From contig OZ024742.1 in NCBI GenBank assembly GCA_964016885.1, forward strand, positions 341,062,001 to 341,126,000: DNA of 64,000 bases, in the 5' to 3' direction. Shown piece by piece: positions 2,722-37,973 of this stretch (position 1 is its first letter; each line of letters starts with the position of its first letter). A model generated the notes under the pieces. It did no database searches, had not been told where the DNA came from, and saw only the letters and a program-made list of their open reading frames with translations. Origin of the DNA: Eledone cirrhosa (lineage: Eukaryota). Made by a program: the position numbers and the translations under genes.

Positions 2722-2816
2722 GACGTATCTGAGGATCTTGCGATTTCAGAGTCAGGTTCGATCATTGCATCGATCGTGTCTCGAGCTGGTCGCCAGAGAA
2801 ATGATTATAATATGTC
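2722..2816 (+). ncRNA. Type I hammerhead ribozyme, family A (long stem II)
   Basis: GACGTAT-CTGAGGA-TCTTGCGA...TCGCCAGA-GAAA-TGATTA-TA-ATATGTC; stems I and II pair; stem III is degenerate relative to the other copies (24950, 30862). Confidence 0.7.
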
Positions 2817-3030
2817 TAATAAATGTTATTCGACGCACCACTGATTCTCCGTTTCTTATGTGATATTATACTCTCCTCTGTAAGAGCATTTAGTGCTCAA
2901 ACGGCCTACCGCTTACGGACGCTTTAAGCATGCCACACCAATTGTATATATATATATATATATATATATATATATATATATATATATATATATAAAGAAG
3001 AAATTAAAAGATGGTTAAAAAAGTTCCATA

Positions 3031-3100
3031 TATTTTATTATGCGCATTTCGAAAACAACATCATCCTTGGACAAACATTGAGTTCTCATCAGATAAAATA
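3031..3100 (-). ncRNA. Type I hammerhead ribozyme, family B
   Basis: Minus strand: TATTTTAT-CTGATGA-GAAC...GTTTTC-GAAA-TGCGCA-TA-ATAAAATA; 8-bp stem I and palindromic stem III ATGCGCAT. Confidence 0.85.
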
Positions 3101-3393
3101 AGGTAACATGATATGAGGCCTAAAAACACTTATGAACAATAAATTGTCCAGTCAACATAGGACAAAAATATAAGAGAAGAGAAAAAAATAGGGAAAATGA
3201 AGAAAAGGAAAGAAGACGGAAAAAGGAAAAAGAAATAAAAGAGAGGAAAAAAGAAAGAAAGAAGGAGGATAGTTTTATTGTTCTACAATATTACTCCCCT
3301 CCTATATATATATATATATATATATATATATATATATATATATATATATATATATAATATTAATAAATGGAAAATGTCTTTATAAAACCATAT

Positions 3394-3454
3394 TATTTTA
3401 TTATACGTATTTCAAGGGTACTAATATTTTAGTACGCTTTCGTCAGATAAAATA
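3394..3454 (-). ncRNA. Type I hammerhead ribozyme, family C
   Basis: Minus strand: TATTTTAT-CTGACGA-AAGCGTACTAA aata TTAGTACCCTT-GAAA-TACGTA-TA-ATAAAATA. Confidence 0.85.
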
Positions 3455-4201
3455 GAATAATTGGTGTAAAGATAGTGACATATCTTCATATGAACTTCAT
3501 GTTATAAGTTCATTGAAGATAGTGTATATAATTTTTCAATACTCAGGGTTAATATGCTAATGTGGTTATCGTTAAAACTGAAAAGGATCGTTAAGTTTAG
3601 ACGCTAGATAGATTTTAAATATTTATCTAAGTTATTTTTTTAAAATGTTTTGCTATTAAATTTGAAAAAAATGTTAAAGTTAATTTAGGATTATTTATAG
3701 AAATATCCATATATATACACCCAAACATATATACATGAGTATAGAAGAATGAAATATTTATATTTATTTACTTAATTTTATAATATATTTTAAGAATATG
3801 GAAGTATTTATAATATTTAGGTGAGAATTACAAAGTAATGTATTAAATTGAGAACTATTAATTTATTAAAGCAATATCATATGTGAAAGATACCCTGTAT
3901 TTATATATACGATTGGATATATTTTACGCGTATATTTTAATATTATGATGAGTGCAGTTATAAATATAATGTATTATAGTATAAGACATTATTGCATATC
4001 GTTATTTTAAAAATTTATTTAGTACATAAATAATTATGCGTGAATATAAATCTTATTTAAGTATATATAATTATGAAAGCGCGTAAGATATGTCAAGCGA
4101 TGATATATATATGCATTTTCTATAAATACCTTAAGAATGTGAAAATAATTATAAGTGAAGCTGTATAATATTATGTATAGTCTATCTTTACACCAATTAT
4201 T

Positions 4202-4262
4202 TATTTTATCTGACGAAAGCGTACTAAAATATTAGTACCCTTGAAATACATATAATAAAATA
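4202..4262 (+). ncRNA. Type I hammerhead ribozyme, family C (mirror of 3394-3454)
   Basis: TATTTTAT-CTGACGA-AAGCGTACTAAAATATTAGTACCCTT-GAAA-TACATA-TA-ATAAAATA. Confidence 0.8.
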
Positions 4263-4532
4263 AATATGGTTTTATAAAGACATTTTCCATTTATTAATAT
4301 TATTGATATTAATGATACTCCGAAAACCCGTTGTGTGCTTCTAATCTGTTGTAAATTAACTTTGTTGAATAATCAACAAACCAAATAACTCATTGTTTAT
4401 ATATATATATATATATATATATATATATATATATATATATATATATATATATATATATATATATATATATATATATATATATATATATATATATATATAT
4501 ATATATATATATATATTAAAATAACAGATTAA

Positions 4533-34979: not shown

Positions 34980-35352
34980 ATGTAGCCTGCGCACAGAATA
35001 TGATAACACAACTGCTAAAAGACTAACTGCAAAAAAGACTACCTCTGATCAGGACCTGCGGATCTGCAACTGTAGAAAATGTGAAAAGTGTCACTTAAAT
35101 GGAACGTGCCTATTCAACCACGTGATTTATAAATTTAGTGTCACCTCATCTAAAGAAACGTACTGTTACATCGGTGCAACGGCCAACTCATTAAAAAATG
35201 GTTTTACACGTTTTGGACGTCAGGAATTTAAACTACCATGTTGCCTGATCATTAATAGAACAAGCAAAATCCTAGCAACGTGAAAGCAAAGAATGCGACA
35301 TGTGTTCCACCAAAGTGGTGGAGATTATGGTCCGTAATGGTTTACTAAGTAA
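34980..35352 (+). pseudogene. Decayed GIY-YIG region of a third PLE (same type as 9328-9663)
   Basis: From 35062: ICNCRKCEKCHLNGTCLFNHVIYKFSVTSSKETYCYIGATANSLK, then after a deletion or frameshift KECDMCSTKVVEIMVRNGLLSK. Confidence 0.75.
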
Positions 35353-35814
35353 ACTTTACTTAACTTTTGACGTGATCTTTTATAACCGCCATCTTTTATA
35401 AGCCATTTAAACTTTCTCTAGATATACAGATGATATAGCACTTAAATCAATTTACCCGGATTATCTAACCAATAAACCTAGTCCAGCCTGCGACTACATC
35501 CCACAAAAAACACATATTTCATATCTACTCTTGACTATTGAGAGGCTTCAGAGCATAATGGATCAGCTCAGATAAGTTACATACATGGAAGTGCACACAT
35601 ATATTGCATGTGCATTATGTAACTTGTTATGTAACTGCCAGGGTTCCAGAAACATATCTGAGATTTTAATCAATTATATCGATTCTAATATATATGGCTG
35701 CACTTTAACTGGACTTGGGCTGCGCACCAGTTGGTGAAACTATGTAGTCAAAACTATGAAGAGAAATTAGGTAATTTTTGTCCATTTGCTCTTCACACCT
35801 ATAATTATACATAT

Positions 35815-36230
35815 ATGATGGACTCTCCTGTCGATTCGACGTGTGAGGTTTCAACGGTTTTTTCAGTTCATTGTTTTATGTGCCTCAAATGGCACTTTAA
35901 TCTAGACATCAATCCGCATTTCGTGCTGGTGACAGGATCTTGAACAGAACAGACTGGAGTGCCTGACGGGACTCTGGTACCACATCTAGGCTAAACCAGA
36001 TTTCTCAAAGTTCTTTATACCTTCGTGGCAGACGGTTCTCCATCTTTTCCGGTTGGCAGTTACGGCTTCAAACGAAGAAAAATGTACGTTGACAGACTTA
36101 AGATTGTACTTGAGTTTGTCCTTATATCGGAGTAGTGGCCTGTCCGCACTGTGCACATCATCCTGGAGCTGACTGTATAACAGTACCTTAGGTGTGCGGT
36201 CTTCAGAAATGACTAGCCCATCTGTTTGAT
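35815..36230 (-). pseudogene. 3' end of an RTE-clade LINE
   Basis: DRTPKVLLYSQL..DRPLLRYKDKLKYNLK..FEAVTANRKRWRTVCHEGIKNFE, then a decayed C..GL...HLRH finger and a short 3' UTR. Confidence 0.75.
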
Positions 36231-37091
36231 GTTGAATCATGTTGGTGGTGCGGGAACGTATTTGAATTATATTATAGGGTAAAATGAGAGGAGGCCGGAC
36301 AGCTTGTATGCCGGTGGATTTGTTTATAGTAATAAAATCTAAAGGAATACAACCTGCCCGGTTTCCTGTCATTTTCCCCTATAATATATATATATATATG
36401 TATATATAAATATATATATGTGTGTGTATGTATGTGTGTGTGTGTGTGTGTGTGTGTGTGTGTGTGTGTGTGTGTGTGTGTGTACATAAAAGGTCTTTTT
36501 CTGTTAAGACCAATATATGAACGCGGCAGTGCGTTTAAGGTTTCAGCTTGAATAGTTAAATCTAAGAACTATTTAATAGCTATAGAAACATCATTAATCA
36601 TCTACTGCTAAGGACGTTTCCATTGACCATTTGACACCAGCTGTTGACACTATGTTGGGAGTCATATACACTTAGGTTGTAACAGTCATGGCTGAATAAC
36701 TGAGGAGTTTCATTCTTGGTTCAGTCACTTTCGGTTGTCTTCTATAAACTCGTGTAGCCTAGGACTAACTAATACTTTGTGGGTGGAATTTGGTAGACGG
36801 AAAGTATTATATCAGGATTAAACCAGTATTAAACTAGTTGGACCATTATTCAACAGAGTACTCAACACTTGCGATATTAGAGTGAGACTATATTAGAAAG
36901 AATCGAGGCCCGACGGCTGAGCTCTTGCTATTGGGCCCCGATTCTTTTTAATATATATATCTACACACACACACGCGCGCACGCGCACACACACACACAC
37001 ATACACACACACATATATATATATATATATATATATATTATATATATATATATATATATATATATATATATATATATATATATATATATAT

Positions 37092-37765
37092 AGGTAGAAG
37101 TTAATATGTCCAGGGATACTAGGTACCCCTAGAAATACATAGGTTGTCTATGATTCAAGGTTGTTCAATGGTGTTAATTTGATACACCAGAACTTTAATA
37201 TTAAGATAAGCAGAACAAGTAAAATTCAATCAATTTTTCAAAATACATTAAAAAATATAATATAAATATTTACCTCTCCTAGTGGCCCTTACTGATCAGT
37301 TTCGCTTTGTAAAACCTCATAAATCCGATGGATTCATGATGGAAAACCAAAGCTCATCAGAGAAGCATTTTCCCTTCCTAGGGCTAAACGTCCCAGGAAC
37401 GACAAAATATACAACCTCCTGCCAGCTAATAAAGGTCTGAAAGGTCGTAAAATTGACCCGTATGTAAACTGGACCGAAGTAAAAGCGGGAAAATCAAAGA
37501 CTTGCTGTCTACAATTACTACTAAAAAAAATAGCAGCCAAGTAAAGCAACAGGATTGTTCTCAACGGACGGAGAAAAATATTTTTTAATGTATTTTGAAA
37601 AATTGATTGAATTTTACTTGTTCTGCTTATCTTAATATTAAAGTTCTGGTGTATCAAATTAACACCATTGAACAACCTATGTATTTCTAGGGGTACCTAG
37701 TATCCCTGGACATATTAACTTCTACCTTTTTCTCCGTCCGTTGAGAACAATCCTGTTGCTTTACT
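37092..37765. mobile_element. Multiply inverted PLE-type terminus, family L
   Basis: 37092-37257 inverted against ~37578-37727; 37540-37578 inverted again at 37728-37765; HHR at 37286. Confidence 0.7.
37286..37364 (-). ncRNA. Type I hammerhead ribozyme, family L
   Basis: Minus strand: TTCT-CTGATGA-GCTTTG...CAAAGC-GAA-ACTGATCAGT-A-AGGG; palindromic stem III. Confidence 0.82.
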
Positions 37766-37911
37766 CCATATTAATAAATGGAGACATTTACATAATCAAA
37801 ATACATGAATTGATGTATGACATACCTCAACTGTGTTGATCGTTCAATTTCAGTCTTGGCAGAAATTGAACCATCAAGACAGTTGAGGTATGTTATACAT
37901 CAATTCATATA

Positions 37912-37973
37912 TTTTATCTGATGAGGACGTACTGAAAAAATAGCACAGTTCCTCCGAAATATATATAATAAAA
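37912..37973 (+). ncRNA. Type I hammerhead ribozyme, related to family C
   Basis: TTTTAT-CTGATGA-GGACGTACTG..CAGTTCCTCC-GAAA-TATATA-TA-ATAAAA; inside a fold-back at ~37770-38115. Confidence 0.8.

What the first reader, a model, noticed from the sequence alone, without database searches (positions are those of the whole stretch)
2722..37973. Very dense field of hammerhead ribozymes from about a dozen Penelope-type families that target (TA)n
Seen: 15 motifs with the canonical core and pairing stems (2722+, 3031-, 3394-, 4202+, 5388+, 15641-, 15828+, 16030-, 16250+, 24079-, 24950-, 29469+, 30862-, 37286-, 37912+) and about 12 variant-core motifs within ~35 kb. Most lie within ~200 nt of a (TA)n junction. 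Established: PLE pseudo-LTRs carry minimal type I HHRs with short palindromic stem III. Inference: what looks like featureless spacer between microsatellites is mostly a diverse set of ribozyme-bearing PLE ends or non-autonomous derivatives, so any transcript crossing the region on either strand would meet many potential cleavage sites.
Basis: partly seen in the sequence, partly recalled or inferred. Interest (0 to 1): 0.85.

Follow-up and report, generated by a model that had tools for sequence, protein, structure and literature searches.

The report
Retroelement hammerhead ribozymes crowding TA repeats
The self-cleaving-RNA (hammerhead) motifs are real and sit at the ends of broken copies of about a dozen known-type Penelope-like jumping elements next to TA repeats; the genome likely holds 200,000-400,000 of them, and most are probably passive leftovers rather than working cut sites.

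Summary
Confirmed. All 15 canonical cores are at the stated places. 14 pass a structure descriptor, against 0 in 40 shuffles, and stems covary. They are 12 insertions, since three pairs are inverted arms of one event. Seven variant-core motifs also pass.

All 21 passing motifs have (TA)n within 200 nt downstream (random 33%); only 3 have it upstream. Families A, B, E, F, G trace to Hydra-clade Penelope-like RT-GIY-YIG genes (G by endonuclease only), and family I to a Neptune/Nematis-type gene. H is a 485-bp tandem retrozyme, D a ~520-nt permuted unit, C unlinked.

The field is a local peak, about 5 times a genome-wide background of 1 canonical motif per ~14 kb. That extrapolates to about 2x10^5 canonical motifs, or 4x10^5 with variants, more than any count I read.

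The 'many cleavage sites' inference is weak: fold-back arms are predicted to sequester 5 motifs, 5' ends do not pile up at the cut, and there is no RNA data. In 92 of 97 inverted pairs exactly one arm carries a 65-100-nt tail, suggesting priming on both DNA strands. The scan's index returned no matching earlier finding. Known biology at unusual scale.

The parts
2721..2817 (+). Type I hammerhead, family C (60-nt stem II domain); tail to ~2945 then (TA)n
3031..3100 (-). Hammerhead, superfamily A (subfamily A1b), tailless end on (TA)n
3394..3454 (-). Hammerhead A2, tailless inverted arm of the 3357-4400 insertion
4198..4266 (+). Hammerhead A2, tailed arm of the same insertion
4533..4583 (-). Family B hammerhead with U4A core (CAGAAGA)
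4782..4817 (+). Family I-a hammerhead with U3-A8 core, weak stem I
4929..5635 (+). Family D insertion (piece of a ~520-nt circularly permuted non-coding unit with inverted arm); hammerhead 5388-5461 has a long stem III and is predicted to fold as a monomer
5760..5995 (.). Family B fold-back: U4A hammerhead 5787-5839(-), decayed arm 5840-5890(+) with tail
6428..8250 (-). Inverted 5'-truncated copy of the RT-EN element's 3' region
   Evidence: 98% identity to 12942-13696
8272..9660 (-). 5'-truncated family B PLE: GIY-YIG C-terminal fragment 9328-9660 upstream of, and sense to, the U4A hammerhead 8299-8349
10030..11610 (+). RT + GIY-YIG open frame of a 5'-truncated Neptune/Nematis-type PLE; 3' UTR and pLTR run to ~13696; no canonical hammerhead in this family's pLTR
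14038..14240 (.). Family G fold-back, truncated downstream of the 5' core
15516..15928 (.). Family A1a fold-back: hammerheads 15641-15707(-) (tailed arm) and 15828-15898(+) (tailless arm)
15979..16453 (.). Family E fold-back: hammerheads 16030-16084(-) (tailless) and 16250-16304(+) (tailed)
16573..17075 (+). Family J insertion with U3-A8 hammerhead 16901-16945 and inverted terminal pieces
19575..19985 (.). Family I-b fold-back, U3-A8 core with fixed A13C at ~19726-19763(-) and ~19832-19869(+)
20004..20195 (.). Family F fold-back joined inside stem II: half-ribozymes without the 5' core (also 20743-20885, 28752-28945, 36832-36955)
21090..21800 (+). Family K copy with U4C hammerhead 21714-21760
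23286..23592 (.). Family B fold-back, one arm truncated in stem II, the other decayed
23954..24260 (-). Family A1a tailed copy; hammerhead ~24077-24147 with a stem III mismatch
24335..24385 (-). Family B U4A hammerhead
24948..25044 (-). Family C hammerhead
29469..29529 (+). Family G hammerhead (3-bp stem III), body from ~29100, tail to ~29635; chimeric fold-back of the same family at 28546-28684
30862..30954 (-). Family C hammerhead, diverged
34927..35280 (+). Decayed Hydra-type linker (CxCX5C) and GIY-YIG fragment
37093..37765 (-). Family H retrozyme: one full 486-nt unit plus an inverted arm; hammerhead 37283-37367
37907..37978 (+). Hammerhead A3, tailed copy with a fold-back 5' end

Best explanation
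These are real type I hammerhead motifs at the 3' ends of 5'-truncated, often folded-back copies of Penelope-like retroelements (mostly Hydra clade) and of ~0.5-kb non-coding retrozyme units, which likely piled up here because their endonuclease is predicted to cut (TA)n, and most copies are likely passive debris rather than working cleavage sites. Shown: the motifs, their covariation, their fixed position 15-200 nt upstream of (TA)n, their link to RT-GIY-YIG genes or tandem units, and two discrete 3' ends per family. Inferred: the element's protein cuts both strands of a (TA)n tract and primes reverse transcription from each, one cDNA starting at the tail end and the other 65-100 nt inside. 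Both stop early, often at a family-specific site (possibly the RNA's 5' end), and are joined head to head through short homology. This gives an inverted pair with exactly one tail. The template is mostly uncleaved RNA, so the ribozyme is copied whole. Each insertion leaves (TA)n on both sides, so TA-rich regions likely attract more insertions.
For: 14 of 15 motifs pass, 0 in 40 shuffles. In 13 superfamily-A sequences 97.4% of cells pair and 7 pairs change on both sides; 0 of 500 shuffles reach the percent paired, 36 of 500 reach the 7 pairs. Arm-swap control: 68 of 72 against a mean of 53, 0 of 2000. (TA)n downstream in 21 of 21 window motifs and 36 of 52 background motifs, against 33% and 14% for random positions. 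A: hammerhead-ORF-hammerhead in L293. B: 713-aa ORF family with U4A motifs up- and downstream (L283, L277, L054). E: pLTR before the ORF and pLTR body after it (L275, L291). F: L054. G: related endonuclease beside 3 of 30 copies. I: L077 and L089. The B protein aligns to the Pfam-confirmed RT-GIY-YIG over 599 columns, probability 96%, E 2.9e-9, and has the Hydra motifs RWR, DKT, CxCX5C, CxxC and CxH (PMC8557442 section 11). H forms 485/486-bp arrays, 16 units within L286; circular fold z -6.4. 92 of 97 classifiable inverted pairs are one tailed plus one tailless arm, while single copies split 92:89. In an independent tail-selected set 14 of 15 partners found are tailless. Junction overlap of 4 nt or more in 29 of 100 against 2.7%. 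5' ends within -8..+10 of the cut in only 15 of 387. An Anolis PLE extends both strands, starts at two internal sites and does not need hammerhead cleavage in vitro (PMC11167929, parts 1-2 read).
Against: No cleavage, RNA or empty-site data. (TA)n could partly be made or lengthened by the insertion, since family ends contain TATATA. No coding partner was found for C (25 + 30 loci), J or K. The G link is to endonuclease fragments only, and E's downstream copy is cut before its hammerhead. The 713-aa protein and 12 homologues have no RT or GIY-YIG Pfam hit, and there is no solved-structure hit. 36 of 100 junctions have extra bases and BLAST ends are imprecise. A cap-G signature at the 5' hot spot is ambiguous in A and absent in B and F. 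Core positions vary less than flanks (29/1756 against 720/18666), which leaves room for some selection. Two-bp stem III motifs in axolotl cleave 22% as monomers (PMC7229834 section 15), so some copies may cut.
Confidence: 0.86

Rival explanations
1. The field, or the genome-wide load, works as a regulatory minefield: host transcripts crossing sense-oriented motifs are cleaved often enough to shape expression.
For: One canonical motif per ~14 kb, and one per ~8 kb with variants. 127 of 160 family copies picked by DNA similarity still pass the descriptor. 16 of 21 window motifs cost 3-13 kcal/mol in upstream context. Invertebrate type I motifs can cleave as monomers (PMC7761336 passages), and Xenopus retrozymes avoid exons and introns (10.64898/2026.07.22.740005, part 2).
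Against: Fold-back arms are predicted to be sequestered. Monomer stem III is predicted unpaired in 14 of 21. PLE hammerheads are weak in vitro (PMC4209133), and no reads began or ended at the Anolis cut site (PMC11167929). No gene or transcript was shown here. Abundant families carry fixed core changes.
Confidence: 0.12
2. Inverted pairs arise by self-priming (fold-back) of a single cDNA or antisense template rather than by priming on both DNA strands.
For: Many junctions are perfect palindromes at CATATG or lie inside stem II. Self-priming was proposed for rotifer PLEs (PMC3846280 passages).
Against: A fold-back copy of one cDNA does not readily explain a tail on only one arm in 92 of 97 pairs, nor arms with very different 5' ends joined by microhomology.
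Confidence: 0.2
3. (TA)n is a product of insertion (slippage or end healing at the element's own TATATA), not a pre-existing target.
For: Both 3' end classes end in or beside TA-rich bases of the element. No empty sites or target-site duplications were examined.
Against: Tailed ends that stop at a non-repetitive base are also followed by TA runs in most copies, and (TA)n insertion is described for nearly all Hydra families (PMC8557442 section 11).
Confidence: 0.15
4. The motifs are chance matches in AT-rich, hairpin-rich DNA.
For: Rfam gives no hit. The descriptor can give false hits, such as one inside the family B ORF.
Against: Shuffles give 0 or 1 in 400 kb; stems covary; the (TA)n link is directional.
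Confidence: 0.01

Closest known systems
Hydra-clade Penelope-like elements (Craig et al. 2021, PMC8557442)
   Same: C-terminal GIY-YIG, RWK-like, DKT and CxCX5C motifs, CxxC/CxH around the conserved E and N, canonical hammerheads in pLTRs, (TA)n insertion, inverted 5'-truncated arms, a tail at one end; molluscan families are mentioned.
   Different: Here units are ~3.2-3.7 kb (described as generally <3 kb), tails are 65-100 nt (30-40 described for PLEs), copy numbers are very large, and some abundant families have fixed core changes (U4A, U3-A8, C3.A8).
PLE minimal hammerheads (Cervera & de la Pena 2014, PMC4209133)
   Same: Type I, long helix II, palindromic helix III, dispersed singles from truncated PLEs, opposite-strand pairs 100-700 bp apart, a U3-A8 variant, sequence families with covariation.
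   Different: Estimated 2-4x10^5 motifs here against 2,000-9,000 reported. Most keep a small helix III; family C has a 60-nt stem II domain and family D a long stem III.
Metazoan non-LTR retrozymes (PMC7229834; 10.64898/2026.07.22.740005)
   Same: Non-coding tandem units of a few hundred bp with one type I hammerhead per unit and a highly paired predicted circle (family H; D is a permuted monomer).
   Different: 485-590 bp is at or above the 150-450 bp first described, though inside the 51-972 bp of the 2026 preprint. H arrays end on (TA)n and carry PLE-style inverted arms. Circular RNA is not shown.
Neptune/Nematis-type PLEs, and the Anolis Poseidon element PAc (PMC11167929)
   Same: CX4CxxC linker, DKG and CCHH in the window's RT-EN family; two internal RT start sites defining a tail.
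   Different: The window's recently active RT-EN family has no canonical hammerhead in its pLTR, and its relative I-b has a fixed A13C.

Membership tests
Type I hammerhead ribozyme | Core CUGANGA / GAAA / UH with three helices, open at helix I | tested here: met
   14 of 15 pass, 0 in shuffles
Type I hammerhead ribozyme | Compensatory changes in stems | tested here: met
   Superfamily A only:
Type I hammerhead ribozyme | Match to an Rfam hammerhead model at gathering score | tested here: not met
   an open loop I and short stem III may fall outside the models (inference)
Type I hammerhead ribozyme | Self-cleavage after H17 | not testable with these tools
   needs in vitro or RNA-end data
EN+ Penelope-like element | RT followed by C-terminal GIY-YIG, linked to the repeat | tested here: met
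   A, B, E, F, I; G by endonuclease only
EN+ Penelope-like element | Same link for families C, J, K | tested here: inconclusive
   C body extends >=450 bp with no ORF found; only a J-like relative precedes an ORF in L032; K not searched genome-wide
EN+ Penelope-like element | Pseudo-LTRs, direct and inverted, with an optional tail | tested here: met
   L293, L279; two 3' end classes in 7 families
Hydra clade | RWK, DKT, CxCX5C linker, CxxC and CxH, no CCHH | tested here: met
   All seen in B (RWR in place of RWK; absence of CCHH by eye); subsets in A, E, F, G
Hydra clade | Insertion into (TA)n | tested here: met
   Adjacency shown; pre-existence of the tract not tested
Hydra clade | Placement in the Hydra branch of an RT tree | not tested
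   no named reference sequences were at hand
Hydra clade | Generally under 3 kb | tested here: not met
   A unit 3.7 kb, B about 3.2 kb; a tendency in the paper, not a strict criterion
Non-LTR retrozyme (family H) | Tandem non-coding units, each with an intact type I hammerhead | tested here: met
   16 units in L286, 8 in L287; longest stop-free frame 99 codons
Non-LTR retrozyme (family D) | Tandem or circularly permuted unit | tested here: inconclusive
   tail found directly upstream of the body at ~520-nt period in 21 of 30 loci; no multimer array seen
Non-LTR retrozyme | Expressed as circular RNA | not testable with these tools
   no run on record as RNA

The most novel reading that the evidence does not exclude
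This genome carries the densest ribozyme load described (70-130 per Mb), enough that most long pre-mRNAs cross sense-oriented hammerheads, so retroelement-borne self-cleavage is a genome-wide force on host transcription, and fold-back arms and fixed core changes are ways of muting it.
Probability: 0.12. Interest if true: 0.8.

Novelty: new member of a known kind. Interest (0 to 1): 0.42.

Why it matters
The biology is known, but the scale is not in the papers I could read: an estimated 2-4x10^5 motifs in 3.0 Gb against 126,247 in the ~28-Gb axolotl (descriptors differ). Two open PLE questions become testable here. (1) How inverted ends form: the one-tail-per-pair rule (92 of 97) predicts priming on both strands from two template sites. 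(2) What the hammerhead is for: recently active families form a natural series from canonical cores through U4A, U4C, U3-A8 and A13C to none. For annotation, much 'unknown' or SINE-like spacer between microsatellites is PLE debris that Rfam and Pfam miss.

Tried and rejected
Rfam at gathering score: nothing. The E-value scan listed only hairpin and microsatellite miRNA-type matches among the 150 shown.

Other core variants (A6, A9, G5, G12, A14, C3A/G) were not enriched in the window. The background A6 excess is mostly one tandem repeat in L059.

Cleaved RNA as the template: no pile-up of 5' ends at the cut. Cap-G at the 5' hot spot: G precedes it in 17 of 53 truncated A copies against 1 of 21 at other breakpoints, but many of these G could come from the inverted arm, and B and F show no excess. 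A splice acceptor at the hot spot fits B and F by eye but not A or C.

An ORF for family C: endonucleases near L124 and L144 are not continuous with it, and L297 holds LTR and LINE fragments instead.

Pfam and PDB on the Hydra-type protein: blank.

RNA: no RNA holder listed. Two runs guessed to be RNA laid nothing and two runs of unknown kind held contigs; neither result is evidence on expression.

Lunse et al. 2016 was not held, so U4A or A13C PLE variants may already be described there. The supplements of PMC8557442 (Hydra family lists and hammerheads) were not opened and may include relatives of these families.
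Full report
Setting. The window is G000:C3:341062001-341126000 in a 3.0-Gb genome. Bases 1-39110 are about 30% GC and rich in microsatellites; 39111-64000 is a 43-bp satellite with no hammerhead. The organism is not given. A cephalopod is my guess from composition, not a result.

Observation. A type I descriptor (core plus scored stems) recovers 14 of the 15 listed motifs; 24079- has the core but a mismatch in stem III. Forty shuffles that keep the microsatellites and the dinucleotide content give 0 each. 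Rfam gives nothing at gathering score. Seven variant-core motifs pass: U4A at 4533-, 5787-, 8299-, 24335-; U3-A8 at 4782+, 16901+; U4C at 21714+ (one further long U4A hit was dropped as spurious). Two U3-A8/A13C and three decayed copies bring the count to about 12. Self-comparison shows that many repeats are head-to-head inverted pairs, so the 15 canonical motifs are 12 insertions. I count six canonical groups (A with four subfamilies, C, D, E, G, H) and five variant groups (B, F, I, J, K).

Covariation. Superfamily A members were picked on the 5' stem I and core only (74 distinct, 11 clusters, 9 with two or more members). They pair at 68 of 72 scored stem II positions; swapping arms between clusters gives a mean of 53, and 0 of 2000 swaps reach 68. 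On a 13-sequence alignment 97.4% of cells pair and 7 pairs change on both sides, 5 in stem II and 2 in the palindromic stem III. None of 500 shuffles reach the percent paired, though 36 reach 7 pairs. Other families were not tested this way.

(TA)n. In the window 21 of 21 passing motifs have (TA)5+ within 200 nt downstream of the cut and 3 of 21 upstream (random 33% and 32%). In background DNA the figures are 36 and 6 of 52 (random 14%). Distances are bimodal per family, for example about +45 and +135 in A, +52 and +152 in E, +17 and +98 in F, which marks an optional tail of 65-100 nt. Whether the tract existed before insertion was not tested.

Density. Forty 10-kb stretches at round positions (27 on the four largest contigs) hold 27-28 canonical motifs and 52 with variants; shuffles give 0-1. 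The window has 14 and 21 in 39 kb, about 5 and 4 times more. Four resampled stretches reach 14 with probability 0.0003, but the window was chosen for being rich, and one background stretch has 5 in 10 kb. The 80 kb upstream holds 9 canonical motifs. Extrapolation gives 2.1x10^5 canonical (bootstrap 1.2-3.1x10^5) and 3.9x10^5 with variants (2.5-5.4x10^5).

What carries them. Family A: L293 has hammerhead, ORF region, hammerhead in direct order, and endonuclease-to-hammerhead continuity recurs in L271, L013, L027, L076. Family B: the window's 9328-9660(-) GIY-YIG fragment lies upstream of and sense to 8299-. A 713-aa ORF of this family is in L283, with U4A motifs after the ORF in L277 and before it in L054. 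Family E: pLTR then ORF in L275, and ORF then pLTR body in L291. Family F flanks an ORF in L054. Family G has a related endonuclease beside 3 of 30 copies. Pfam misses this protein type, but a 40-sequence profile aligns to the Pfam-confirmed RT-GIY-YIG over 599 columns, and its motifs match the description of the Hydra clade (PMC8557442 section 11). Family I flanks Neptune/Nematis-type ORFs in L077 and L089. Family H is a 485/486-bp tandem unit, non-coding, with a circular fold z of -6.4 on 30 shuffles. In family D the tail lies directly upstream of the body at about 520-nt period in 21 of 30 loci. No ORF was found for C, J or K. The window's own RT-GIY-YIG element (10030-11610) belongs to a young family with many copies at 95-98% identity and several 796-aa open frames. 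Its pLTR has only a non-canonical look-alike, the same in 18 of 20 copies.

How the pairs form. In six families 92 of 97 classifiable inverted pairs have one tailed and one tailless arm (99 found). With A2, which may overlap A, it is 98 of 107. Unpaired copies split 92 tailed to 89 tailless, so about half would be expected. In 29 copies chosen only on sequence downstream of the cut, a partner was found for 15, and 14 were tailless; none starts at the cut. Of 100 adjacent junctions, 49 overlap by 2 nt or more and 29 by 4 or more (null 17% and 2.7%), and 36 have extra bases. One arm usually stops at a family-specific site (A -124, in about 22 of 28 pairs; E about -166; F about -41; B -46). Only 15 of 387 mapped 5' ends lie within -8..+10 of the cut. 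I infer priming on both target strands from two template sites on uncleaved RNA, as the Anolis enzyme's behaviour allows (PMC11167929). That the tail is often on one end only was noted before (PMC8557442 and PMC3846280 passages); self-priming is the published alternative. The hot spots fall on pyrimidine-A steps resembling an initiator (consensus recalled), but the cap-G test was ambiguous.

Would they cut? Untested. Forcing the hammerhead fold costs 1-9 kcal/mol in isolation. With 450 nt of upstream sequence it costs 58-86 kcal/mol for the 5 motifs in tight fold-backs and 3-13 for the other 16. Stem III has at most 2 monomer pairs in 13 of 21 and is fully self-complementary in 14, which favours dimers; yet a 2-bp axolotl motif cleaves 22% alone (PMC7229834 section 15). 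Core changes are fixed in abundant families: U4A in 23 of 24 B copies, A13C in 9 of 10 I-b, U4C in 4 of 4 K. U3-A8 is a known active covariation and U4C is weak but viable (PMC3088659 passages). That U4A and A13C reduce activity is recalled, not from a call. Of 160 copies picked by DNA similarity 127 still pass, and cores vary less than flanks (1.7% against 3.9%), but flanks include subfamily differences. No RNA run was available.

Literature seen. PMC4209133 parts 1-2 of 4; PMC11167929 parts 1-2 of 4; 10.64898/2026.07.22.740005 parts 1-2 of 5; PMC8557442 passages and section 11; PMC7229834 passages and section 15; passages of PMC6765202, PMC7761336, PMC3088659, PMC13282606, PMC3846280, PMC2377424. 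No supplements were read. Nine searches listed no paper whose title or abstract start describes such a field or count in a cephalopod. The octopus repeat annotation has 0 occurrences of 'ribozyme'. Lunse et al. 2016 was not held. Published counts I saw: about 2,000 + 1,300 (Schistosoma minimal motifs), 4,000 (coelacanth), 9,000 (Xenopus), 5,000 (mussel), 126,247 (axolotl).

Verdict. This is established PLE and retrozyme biology, dominated by the Hydra clade, at a local peak of an unusually large genome-wide load. The regulatory reading is possible but unsupported. Interest 0.42; new member of a known kind.

Noticed in passing
window 39111-64000: 43-bp satellite, 579 copies at 95% match. Stretches L079 and L080, up to 30 kb beyond the window, have the same GC and no microsatellites, so the array probably continues; the PLE-rich zone may be satellite-adjacent heterochromatin.
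   Followed up: partly
window 13620-13696; L279:2264-3060: The young, intact RT-EN family has an upstream ~420-aa ORF1 and a ~45-nt tail but no canonical hammerhead; a conserved look-alike with broken core positions sits in its place. It could be a dead hammerhead or another RNA.
   Followed up: partly
window 20429-20644, 22529-22765, 26016-26229, 26453-26681, 38442-38860: Very abundant ~200-bp repeat (about 200 hits in the loci held) with A- and B-box-like motifs, likely a tRNA-derived SINE (label recalled).
   Followed up: no
L043:554-2356, L037:2375-3059, L279:9124-9806: 592-bp tandem retrozyme with a U3-A8 core; other tandem hammerhead units of 466 bp (L278) and 310 bp (L071).
   Followed up: no
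window 11620-12940: The RT-EN element's 3' UTR contains ~1.3 kb of mixed (TA)/(TG) microsatellite conserved between copies, so part of the 'microsatellite background' is itself carried by PLEs.
   Followed up: partly
window 35700-36380 (-), 27520-27960 (+), 33913-34355: Decayed coding or repeat fragments: a LINE-like C-terminal piece, a possible DNA-transposase piece, and another repeat with 24 hits.
   Followed up: no
L049:124-756, L074:4019-4299 versus L054:4884-4977: Family F exists with a paired U3-A8 core and with a mismatched C3.A8 core, a natural intermediate.
   Followed up: no
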